DNA of 64,000 bases, from the NCBI RefSeq assembly GCF_003018255.1, contig NZ_CP027440.1; one strand, given 5' to 3'. A program made the position numbers. Positions 29,394-30,385 of the stretch are shown one piece after another (position 1 is the first letter of the stretch; each line of letters begins with the position of its first letter). The stretch is from Escherichia coli. Lineage in GTDB: Bacteria; Pseudomonadota; Gammaproteobacteria; Enterobacterales; Enterobacteriaceae.

Positions 29394-30385
29394 TCACCAG
29401 TATTCTCTGGTTATGTCAGGTTTTGCCTGCGAATGCAGTAACAATCCAGTCATTAATTAATGGTTTTTATAACGAACATCCAGGTTCGAAAATTAATTTA
29501 GTTGCGTGCAGAGAAAATAGCAATGCTCTATTTATAAAAGTATGATCATGCTCGCAGTTATTAATTTTGTGTAATTTTAGGATTTTATAAAGTTATATAT
29601 AACAAATCCCAATAATTAAATTATTGGGATTTACTTGGTGAATTATTTATCGCTATCTTTTTCTGCCAGCAGTTTATCGAGCTCGTCACCACCGACGTGA
29701 CGGAAATCCTGCCCCTTCACGTAGTAGAAGATAAACTCACAAATATTCTGGCAGCGGTCGCCGATACGTTCGATTGAACGCGCACAAAACAGCGCGGTAA
29801 GTACGCTTGGAATGGTGCGCGAATCTTCCATCATGTAGGTCATCAGCTGACGAACAATACCTTCGTACTCCTGATCGACTTTTTTATCTTCACGATAAAT
29901 ACGTACCGCTTCATCAATGTCCATCCGCGCGAACGCGTCCAGCACGTCGTGCAGCATCTGGATGGTATGACGGCCCAGCGACTCCAGACTTACCAGCAAT
30001 AGCTGATGCTGCTGGGAGAATTTCTCCAGTGCAGTACGGCAGATTTTGTCCGCCACGTCGCCAATACGCTCCAGCTCGGCAATGGTTTTACTGATCACCA
30101 TAACCAGACGCAGGTCGCTCGCCGTCGGCTGGCGTTTGGCAATAATGCGCACGCAGGCTTCATCGATCGCCACTTCCATCATGTTGACGTTCTTGTCGCC
30201 TTCGATGACGCGCTTCGCCAGATCGCTGTCCTGGTTGTGCATTGCAGTGATCGCATCAGAAAGCTGCTGCTCCACCATGCCGCCCATGGTCATCACCTGC
30301 GTGCGGATGCTTTCCAGTTCGGCGTTGAACTGGCCGGAAATATGTTTATTAAGATTGAGACTGTCCATAACGCACTCCTGAATCA

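What the first reader, a model, noticed from the sequence alone, without database searches (positions are those of the whole stretch)
29451..29642. AT-rich bgl promoter/silencer region with no activating insertion
The region upstream of the bglG leader is strongly AT-rich and flanked by the RAT/terminator t1. In E. coli the bgl operon is cryptic (H-NS silenced) and is usually activated by IS1/IS5 insertion or point mutations here. No IS element is present, so the operon is expected to be silent; together with the bglF amber stop this suggests the locus is not under selection for function in this strain.
Basis: partly seen in the sequence, partly recalled or inferred. Interest (0 to 1): 0.25.

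Follow-up and report, generated by a model that had tools for sequence, protein, structure and literature searches.

The report
Unactivated bgl promoter and silencer region
This is the well-studied AT-rich control region of the E. coli beta-glucoside (bgl) operon, in the variant typical of extraintestinal (B2-type) strains and with no known activating change, so it is an ordinary feature.

Summary
Window 29451-29642 is 26% G+C against 50.5% for the whole window, in the lowest 0.3% of 192-nt stretches. It lies between the phoU stop codon and the RAT/terminator t1 of the bglG leader, on the minus strand.

The 285-bp phoU-bglG spacer lines up with E. coli K-12 base for base, with 13 substitutions and no insertion or deletion. 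So there is no IS element and no silencer deletion. The one activating point mutation I could verify, C->T at -67 in the CRP site, is absent.

- The locus is the B2-type "type II" bgl. Published work found it functional in 46 of 48 B2 strains, and weakly expressed at 37 C in about half of them for strain-specific reasons. "Silent" is therefore not a safe prediction.
- The allele carries a rare G->A at -59 in the CRP-site spacer, seen in 3 of 5426 complete genomes. Its effect is untested.
- The bglF amber codon is one young change. It is absent from all 5426 complete genomes and from the nearest relatives. It falls in the IIC-IIA linker.
- Window-versus-K-12 dN/dS for the bgl genes is 0.04-0.09, which indicates long-term purifying selection.

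Verdict: already known, low interest.

The parts
29643..30368 (-). phoU, the last gene of the pst-phoU operon. Its stop codon abuts the flagged interval.
   Evidence: ORF. Annotated as phoU in identical or near-identical genomes.
29603..29633 (-). Near-perfect dyad (14-bp arms) just after phoU: the pst-phoU terminator hairpin, lying inside the upstream AT-rich silencer zone.
   Evidence: RNA fold -14.5 kcal/mol, z = -3.96, 0 of 200 shuffles as good. T at 29620 (C in K-12) lengthens the perfect stem.
29557..29637 (-). Upstream silencer (H-NS binding zone) and IS target zone, -70 to -150 relative to the Pbgl start. No insertion is present.
   Evidence: The -70 to -150 insertion zone comes from PMC5493358. 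The upstream H-NS site comes from PMC9678765. The window aligns to K-12 here without gaps. 29557-29642 is 19.8% G+C. Three IS5 target sites (YTAR) are retained. H-NS binding itself was not testable.
29578..29585 (-). Core of the BglJ-RcsB box, centred near -96. It reads AAATCCTA here and AATTCCTA in K-12.
   Evidence: Centre 96 bp upstream of the Pbgl start and motif wwTTCykA, from PMC3950696. The substitution at 29583 is shared by all B2-type genomes compared.
29538..29559 (-). CRP-cAMP site AACTGCGAGCATGATCATACTT, centred at -61.5. Half-sites are TGCGA (29552-56) and TCATA (29541-45). The rare G->A at 29546 (-59) lies in the N6 spacer.
   Evidence: Centre -61.5 from PMC3950696. Activating C->T at -67 from PMC9678765; 29554 is C. 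Match to the 22-bp consensus: 15/22 here, 15/22 in K-12, 14/22 in typical B2, 16/22 in the activated mutant.
29518..29523 (-). Pbgl -35 hexamer TTGCTA. It overlaps TATTTT (29514-19), the likely -10 of the BglJ-dependent P2 promoter.
   Evidence: Inferred from spacing to the start site. Identical to K-12. P2 start 20 bp upstream of the Pbgl start.
29495..29500 (-). Pbgl -10 hexamer TAAATT, with a 17-bp spacer.
   Evidence: Inferred from spacing. Identical to K-12. At 8/12 to consensus it falls below the scanner's threshold, as expected for an activator-dependent promoter.
29487..29487 (-). Pbgl transcription start (+1). The P2 start is at 29507.
   Evidence: Placed so that the CRP centre is at -61.5 and the published C->T falls on the C of TGCGA at -67. 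The published '-79' EcoRI-creating change also fits the P2 start at 29507.
29419..29447 (-). RAT (BglG binding site in the leader RNA), GGATTGTTACTGCATTCGCAGGCAAAACC.
   Evidence: Identical to K-12. It overlaps the 5' arm of t1. The RAT identity rests on established knowledge of the bgl leader.
29377..29424 (-). Rho-independent terminator t1 of the bglG leader, stem plus T-run.
   Evidence: Fold -26.5 kcal/mol, z = -4.78. Identical to K-12.
28521..29357 (-). bglG (antiterminator), intact at 278 aa.
   Evidence: Four aa differences from K-12 and one from ABU 83972.
26513..28387 (-). bglF with an amber codon (TAG) at codon 465 (26993-26995). This leaves IIB-IIC (464 aa) and a downstream IIA-domain ORF (ATG at 26944).
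   Evidence: Pfam domains of the two products. No exact match in 5426 complete genomes.
25100..26494 (-). bglB, 464 aa, the normal B2-type allele (A7 tract instead of A8 near the 3' end).
   Evidence: Same C-terminus as strain DETEC-S792 (S792, the one genome matching the promoter region 100%); ABU 83972's annotated bglB has the same 1395-nt length.

Best explanation
[quoted passage not shown] In order it contains:
- the pst-phoU terminator dyad;
- an extremely AT-rich upstream silencer, where H-NS binds and where IS1/IS5 insert in Bgl+ mutants;
- a BglJ-RcsB box;
- a sub-optimal CRP site centred at -61.5;
- the weak Pbgl core promoter, then the start of the leader that runs into RAT/t1.

Mechanism, established in K-12 and inferred here from near-identity: H-NS bound upstream, together with a second site in bglG, silences a CRP-dependent promoter. 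Any transcripts made stop at t1 unless BglG binds the RAT.

The window carries the natural type II (B2-type) allele in its unactivated state. It has no IS, no deletion and no C->T at -67. In cis it should therefore be H-NS-repressed. How leaky it is at 37 C depends on the strain background, not on this sequence.

The bglF amber is a separate, recent, single-base lesion downstream.
For: - The 285-bp spacer aligns without gaps to K-12, with 13 substitutions. The -35, the -10 and both CRP half-sites are identical to K-12, and the whole stretch from the base after 29455 (the last substitution, 8 nt upstream of the RAT) through RAT and t1 to the bglG ATG is also identical.
- Coordinates agree with two independent published anchors: CRP centre at -61.5 and C->T at -67.
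- G+C is 26%, the lowest 0.27% of the window, and lower than K-12's 28.6% for the same interval.
- The terminator folds have z = -4.0 (phoU) and -4.8 (t1).
- 4262 of 4319 E. coli records with this region carry it uninterrupted, so the absence of an IS is the norm.
- No complete genome has an exact 99-mer carrying the -67 T on either the common B2 background or the K-12 background.
- Published H-NS, CRP and IS biology.
Against: - Nothing contradicts the identity of the region.
- The prediction 'repressed' is weakened by the relaxed (weakly Bgl+ at 37 C) phenotype of about half of B2 strains.
- A rare -59 G->A moves the CRP-site spacer towards the consensus.
- H-NS, CRP and BglJ-RcsB binding were not measured.
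- The -35 and -10 assignment is my inference from spacing.
- The full list of published activating substitutions could not be read, because the older papers are not held.
Confidence: 0.85

Rival explanations
1. This is a naturally semi-activated allele. The rare G->A at -59 (GGTCATA -> GATCATA) strengthens CRP binding enough to compete with H-NS, as the classical -67 C->T does. The lineage would then express bgl more than other B2 strains.
For: - The change lies inside the 22-bp CRP operator and matches the consensus base, raising the match from 14/22 in typical B2 to 15/22.
- It is rare. Three of 5426 complete genomes share the exact 99-mer, and none has A(-59) on the commoner B2 background.
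Against: [quoted passage not shown]
- The half-site defects TGCGA and TCATA remain.
- The total match only equals the silent K-12 site, at 15/22.
- Even the -67 C->T gave only a moderate increase and a Bgl- phenotype in one reporter strain.
- A rare neutral lineage marker explains the data equally well.
Confidence: 0.08
2. This is a decaying locus. bgl is no longer selected in this strain, so the silent promoter and the bglF nonsense codon are steps in pseudogenisation.
For: - There is an amber codon at bglF codon 465.
- It has persisted in a sub-clone seen in 19 assembled contigs.
- Erosion of bgl is documented elsewhere: 20% of A/B1 strains, and a bglG internal stop in two ST131 genomes.
Against: - There is only one lesion. 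bglG, bglB and bglH, both RAT/terminators and the promoter are intact.
- The amber is absent from the nearest genomes and from all 5426 complete genomes.
- dN/dS is 0.035-0.09.
- B2 strains conserve bgl, functional in 46 of 48.
- The stop falls in the IIC-IIA linker. The resulting IIB-IIC protein resembles AscF-type permeases, which use IIA-Glc, and an IIA ORF follows. Loss of function is therefore not certain.
Confidence: 0.25
3. The interval is merely a terminator plus AT-rich spacer with no regulatory role in this strain.
For: The simple sigma-70 scan does not call Pbgl, and it finds no more promoter-like sites than shuffled sequence gives.
Against: Every experimentally defined K-12 element is present at the same spacing, with identical core sequences. 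Pbgl is known to be a weak, CRP-dependent promoter.
Confidence: 0.02

Closest known systems
E. coli K-12 bgl regulatory region (Pbgl, upstream H-NS silencer, CRP site, leader RAT/t1)
   Same: - Same position between phoU and bglG, and the same 285-bp length.
- Identical -35, -10, CRP half-sites, RAT and t1.
- Same unactivated state: no IS, no 47-bp deletion, C at -67.
   Different: - 13 substitutions, with a net 5 fewer G/C (26.0% against 28.6%).
- T->A in the TTC core of the BglJ-RcsB box.
- G->A at -59 and T->C at -53 in the CRP operator.
- C->A at -46 and at -40.
- T->C at -14 and C->T at -2.
Type II bgl locus of phylogroup B2 E. coli (CFT073, i484, ABU 83972 type; Sankar et al. 2009)
   Same: - Gene order bglGFBH-yieL-yieK-cbrB without cbrC.
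- bglB of 464 aa.
- Promoter 99.5% identical over 401 bp.
   Different: - Two promoter positions differ from the common B2 sequence: A instead of G at -59, and C instead of T at 29513 in the -35/-10 spacer. Only 3 of 5426 complete genomes share the exact allele.
- The bglF amber is not found in any of them.
Cis-activated Bgl+ alleles (IS1/IS5 insertions, silencer deletion, CRP-site C->T at -67)
   Same: They occupy the same target region, and the IS5 YTAR target sites are retained.
   Different: None of these changes is present. A natural IS1A insertion does occur in ST131 strain MNCRE44, which shows what such an allele looks like.

Membership tests
bgl operon regulatory region (Pbgl with H-NS upstream silencer) | Lies between phoU and bglG, upstream of bglGFB | tested here: met
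   ORFs and annotation of near-identical genomes.
bgl operon regulatory region (Pbgl with H-NS upstream silencer) | CRP site centred at -61.5, with core promoter hexamers as in K-12 | tested here: met
   Gap-free alignment. Half-sites and hexamers are identical to K-12. Position taken from PMC3950696.
bgl operon regulatory region (Pbgl with H-NS upstream silencer) | Leader with a RAT overlapping rho-independent terminator t1 | tested here: met
   Sequence identical to K-12 from the base after 29455 (8 nt upstream of the RAT) to the bglG ATG. t1 fold z = -4.78.
bgl operon regulatory region (Pbgl with H-NS upstream silencer) | AT-rich upstream region bound by H-NS | not testable with these tools
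   Composition fits: 19.8% G+C upstream of the CRP site. Binding needs a footprint or ChIP.
Cis-activated (Bgl+) bgl allele | IS element within about -70 to -150, or downstream of the promoter | tested here: not met
   285-bp spacer with no indel against K-12.
Cis-activated (Bgl+) bgl allele | Deletion of the upstream H-NS binding region (for example 47 bp) | tested here: not met
   No indel. The deletion is described in PMC2646131.
Cis-activated (Bgl+) bgl allele | CRP-site mutation C->T at -67 (TGCGA -> TGTGA) | tested here: not met
   29554 is C. The mutation is described in PMC9678765. Other published CRP-site substitutions could not be checked.
Type II bgl locus (B2-type, Sankar 2009) | cbrB (yieI) follows yieK without cbrC (yieJ), and the sequence clusters with B2 genomes | tested here: met
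.
Rfam RF03530 bglG-cis-reg | Score at or above the gathering threshold (80 bits) | tested here: not met
   23.2 bits, E = 0.08, at 29361-29467, minus strand. The leader is nevertheless identical to the experimentally defined K-12 RAT/t1.

The most novel reading that the evidence does not exclude
The lineage-specific G->A at -59 improves CRP binding and loosens H-NS silencing. In addition, the amber in the IIC-IIA linker does not kill BglF. Instead it converts BglF into an AscF-like IIB-IIC permease, served by IIA-Glc or by the separately translated IIA ORF. That would change how BglF controls BglG, making this sub-clone a natural rewiring of bgl regulation rather than a decaying locus.
Probability: 0.05. 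Interest if true: 0.35.

Novelty: already known. Interest (0 to 1): 0.1.

Why it matters
This region is a textbook case of H-NS silencing and of activation by insertion elements. Finding it unactivated is the default: about 99% of the E. coli genomes that have this region carry it uninterrupted.

The useful corrections are two. First, in B2-type strains the promoter sequence does not predict the Bgl phenotype. Second, a single young nonsense codon does not show loss of selection.

The rare -59 variant and the split bglF are cheap to test. They would matter only to specialists in bgl and PTS regulation.

Tried and rejected
- The sigma-70 and terminator consensus scan called neither Pbgl nor t1. 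Pbgl matches only 8/12, and the t1 loop exceeds the scanner's limit. I used alignment to K-12 and folding instead.
- The Rfam search gave only a sub-threshold hit to RF03530 and a chance miRNA hit.
- I tried to read Schnetz 1995 and Venkatesh 2010 for the full list of activating mutations and the exact BglJ-RcsB site. Neither paper is held, and searches for 'C234' and for CRP-site point mutations returned nothing new.
- I looked for papers on BglF lacking its IIA domain. I found only indirect support: IIA cross-talk within the glucose family, and AscF using IIA-Glc.
- I considered that the amber might be a sequencing error. I rejected this because the same truncated product is recorded in 19 independently assembled contigs, and the one examined is identical to the window at 7240 of 7241 bases.
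- I considered that bglB is frameshifted, as annotated in the two nearest genomes. I rejected this as an annotation inconsistency. The A7 tract gives the same C-terminus as the allele annotated intact in S792, and ABU 83972's bglB, also annotated intact, has the same 1395-nt length.

Full report
**1. What is at the coordinates**

All genes here lie on the minus strand.
- phoU is 29643-30368.
- bglG is 28521-29357.
- bglF is 26513-28387.
- bglB is 25100-26494.
- bglH is 23398-25014.

A megablast of 29300-29700 found the region in 4318 of 5426 complete E. coli genomes, always annotated phoU | bglG.

The flagged interval, 29451-29642, starts at the base after the phoU stop codon and ends 4 nt before the RAT. 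It is 26.0% G+C against 50.5% for the window. Only 0.27% of 192-nt stretches are as low, and it is one of five such patches.

**2. Anatomy**

The phoU-bglG spacer (29358-29642) is 285 bp, exactly as in K-12. It aligns without gaps, with 13 substitutions in the spacer and one more in phoU.

I fixed the transcription start at 29487 using two independent published anchors.
- The CRP site is centred at -61.5 (PMC3950696).
- The activating C->T in the CRP operator is at -67 (PMC9678765). This falls on the C of TGCGA at 29554.

A third check also fits. The published '-79' EcoRI-creating change matches AAATTC->GAATTC at 29586, measured from the BglJ-dependent P2 start 20 bp upstream (29507).

Reading the minus strand, the elements are as follows.
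- **Terminator dyad, 29603-29633.** This is the pst-phoU terminator. Its fold is -14.5 kcal/mol, z = -4.0.
- **AT-rich silencer and IS target zone, -70 to -150, 29557-29637.** It is 19.8% G+C when measured to the phoU stop.
- **BglJ-RcsB box core, 29578-29585**.
- **CRP site, 29538-29559.**
- **-35 hexamer TTGCTA, 29518-23, and -10 hexamer TAAATT, 29495-29500.** This assignment is my inference from spacing. Both hexamers are identical to K-12.
- **Leader.** The RAT is at 29419-29447. Terminator t1 is at 29377-29424, with a fold of -26.5 kcal/mol and z = -4.8.

Everything from the base after 29455 (the last substitution, 8 nt upstream of the RAT) to the bglG ATG is identical to K-12.

**3. Is it activated?**

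No known cis-activating change is present.
- There is no IS element and no deletion, because there are no indels.
- Position -67 is C.

This is the normal state.
- 4262 of 4319 records with the region carry it as one uninterrupted match.
- No complete genome holds an exact 99-mer with T at -67, on either the common B2 background or the K-12 background.
- One natural IS1A insertion was seen, in ST131 strain MNCRE44.

**4. Which allele is it?**

The window is a type II (B2-type) bgl locus.
- cbrB follows yieK with no cbrC.
- The promoter is 99.5% identical to ABU 83972 and other B2 genomes, against 95% for K-12.

Compared with the common B2 promoter (ABU 83972, SE15, an ST131 genome), two positions differ.
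- 29546 is A instead of G. This is position -59, the last base of the N6 spacer of the CRP site.
- 29513 is C instead of T. This lies in the spacer between -35 and -10. C is also the K-12 base.

Only 3 of 5426 complete genomes share the exact 99-bp core: DETEC-S792 and JNE23-011 and JNE112863, which are identical to the window here. None has A(-59) on the commoner background.

The -59 change matches the consensus base. It raises the 22-bp match from 14 to 15, which only equals the silent K-12 site. The activated mutant scores 16. [quoted passage not shown] I therefore treat it as a probable neutral lineage marker. A small chance remains that it has a modest effect.

**5. Can silence be predicted from the sequence?**

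Only in part. Sankar et al. 2009 reported the following.
- bgl was functional in 46 of 48 B2 strains.
- About half of B2 strains were weakly Bgl+ at 37 C and Bgl- at 28 C.
- They judged single-nucleotide differences between the bgl types an unlikely cause: promoter regions from weakly expressing strains such as i484 were silent when placed in K-12, so they regarded the phenotype as presumably strain-specific.
- Mutants of i484 were still activated by the 47-bp silencer deletion or by a CRP-site mutation.

So the cis region here is best described as H-NS-repressible and unactivated. The actual expression level is set by the strain background.

**6. The bglF amber and the selection argument**

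Codon 465 is TAG where relatives have GAG.
- **It is the only nearby difference.** Nothing else separates the window from its closest genomes between 23718 and 30000, and those genomes are 99.9% identical over 24 kb.
- **It is absent from complete genomes.** No complete genome matches the surrounding 91 bp exactly.
- **It is real.** The 464-aa product is recorded on 19 assembled contigs. The one examined is identical to the window at 7240 of 7241 bases.
- **It is a minor allele.** The intact allele of the same lineage is listed in 1062 collection blocks.
- **It falls in the IIC-IIA linker.** The stop leaves a IIB-IIC protein and a following IIA-domain ORF (Pfam domains).
- **Function may survive.** IIA proteins of the glucose family cross-substitute, and the related AscF permease uses IIA-Glc. 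Loss of function is therefore likely but not certain; this is inference.

The rest of the operon is intact.
- bglG, bglB, bglH and the second RAT/terminator show no lesions.
- The 'frameshifted' bglB annotation in the two nearest genomes reflects the ordinary B2 A7 tract. The same C-terminus is annotated intact in S792, and ABU 83972's intact bglB has the same length.

Nei-Gojobori dN/dS against K-12 is 0.049 for bglG, 0.091 for bglF, 0.075 for bglB and 0.035 for bglH.

Together this shows long-term purifying selection followed by one recent lesion. It does not show that selection has been lost.

**7. Verdict**

The region is the well-known bgl promoter and silencer, in its usual unactivated state. 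Novelty is nil beyond a rare natural allele, and interest is low.

Noticed in passing
window 30001 (phoU codon 123, minus strand): A private non-synonymous change gives PhoU P123L. K-12, both nearest genomes and the Logan assembly that shares the bglF amber all encode Pro. Changes in phoU could alter Pho-regulon control, but the effect of this one is unknown.
   Followed up: partly
window 29578-29585 (substitution at 29583): All B2-type genomes compared read AAATCCTA where K-12 has AATTCCTA. This changes the conserved TTC of the BglJ-RcsB box (wwTTCykA), centred near -96. It might weaken BglJ-RcsB activation of bgl in B2 strains.
   Followed up: partly
window 26513-26995: The amber at bglF codon 465 lies in the IIC-IIA linker. 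An ATG at 26944 opens a 143-aa ORF covering the IIA domain, which the gene caller called as a separate 138-aa PTS_EIIA_1 product in a Logan assembly.
   Followed up: partly
window 25083-25110 (3' end of bglB): An A7 tract (A8 in K-12) shortens BglB from 470 to 464 aa. PGAP annotates this allele as intact in S792, but as 'frameshifted' in JNE23-011 and JNE112863; ABU 83972's bglB, annotated intact, has the same length.
   Followed up: yes
window 21245-23717 (3' end of bglH, yieL, yieK, cbrB side): 26 of the 32 differences from the nearest genome over 24 kb cluster in these 2.5 kb. This suggests a recombination tract boundary downstream of bglH.
   Followed up: no
L006 and L010 (ST131 genomes CU568-3 and MNCRE44): bglG is annotated as a pseudogene with an internal stop in both. 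MNCRE44 also carries an IS1A between phoU and bglG. This looks like bgl erosion within a B2 clone, and it gives a natural example of promoter insertion.
   Followed up: no
window 34471-39780: An lpfA-D (O113-type long polar fimbriae) operon sits between glmS and pstS, and K-12 lacks it. The window's lowest-G+C patch (20%, 39397-39778) lies upstream of lpfA and may be another H-NS target.
   Followed up: no
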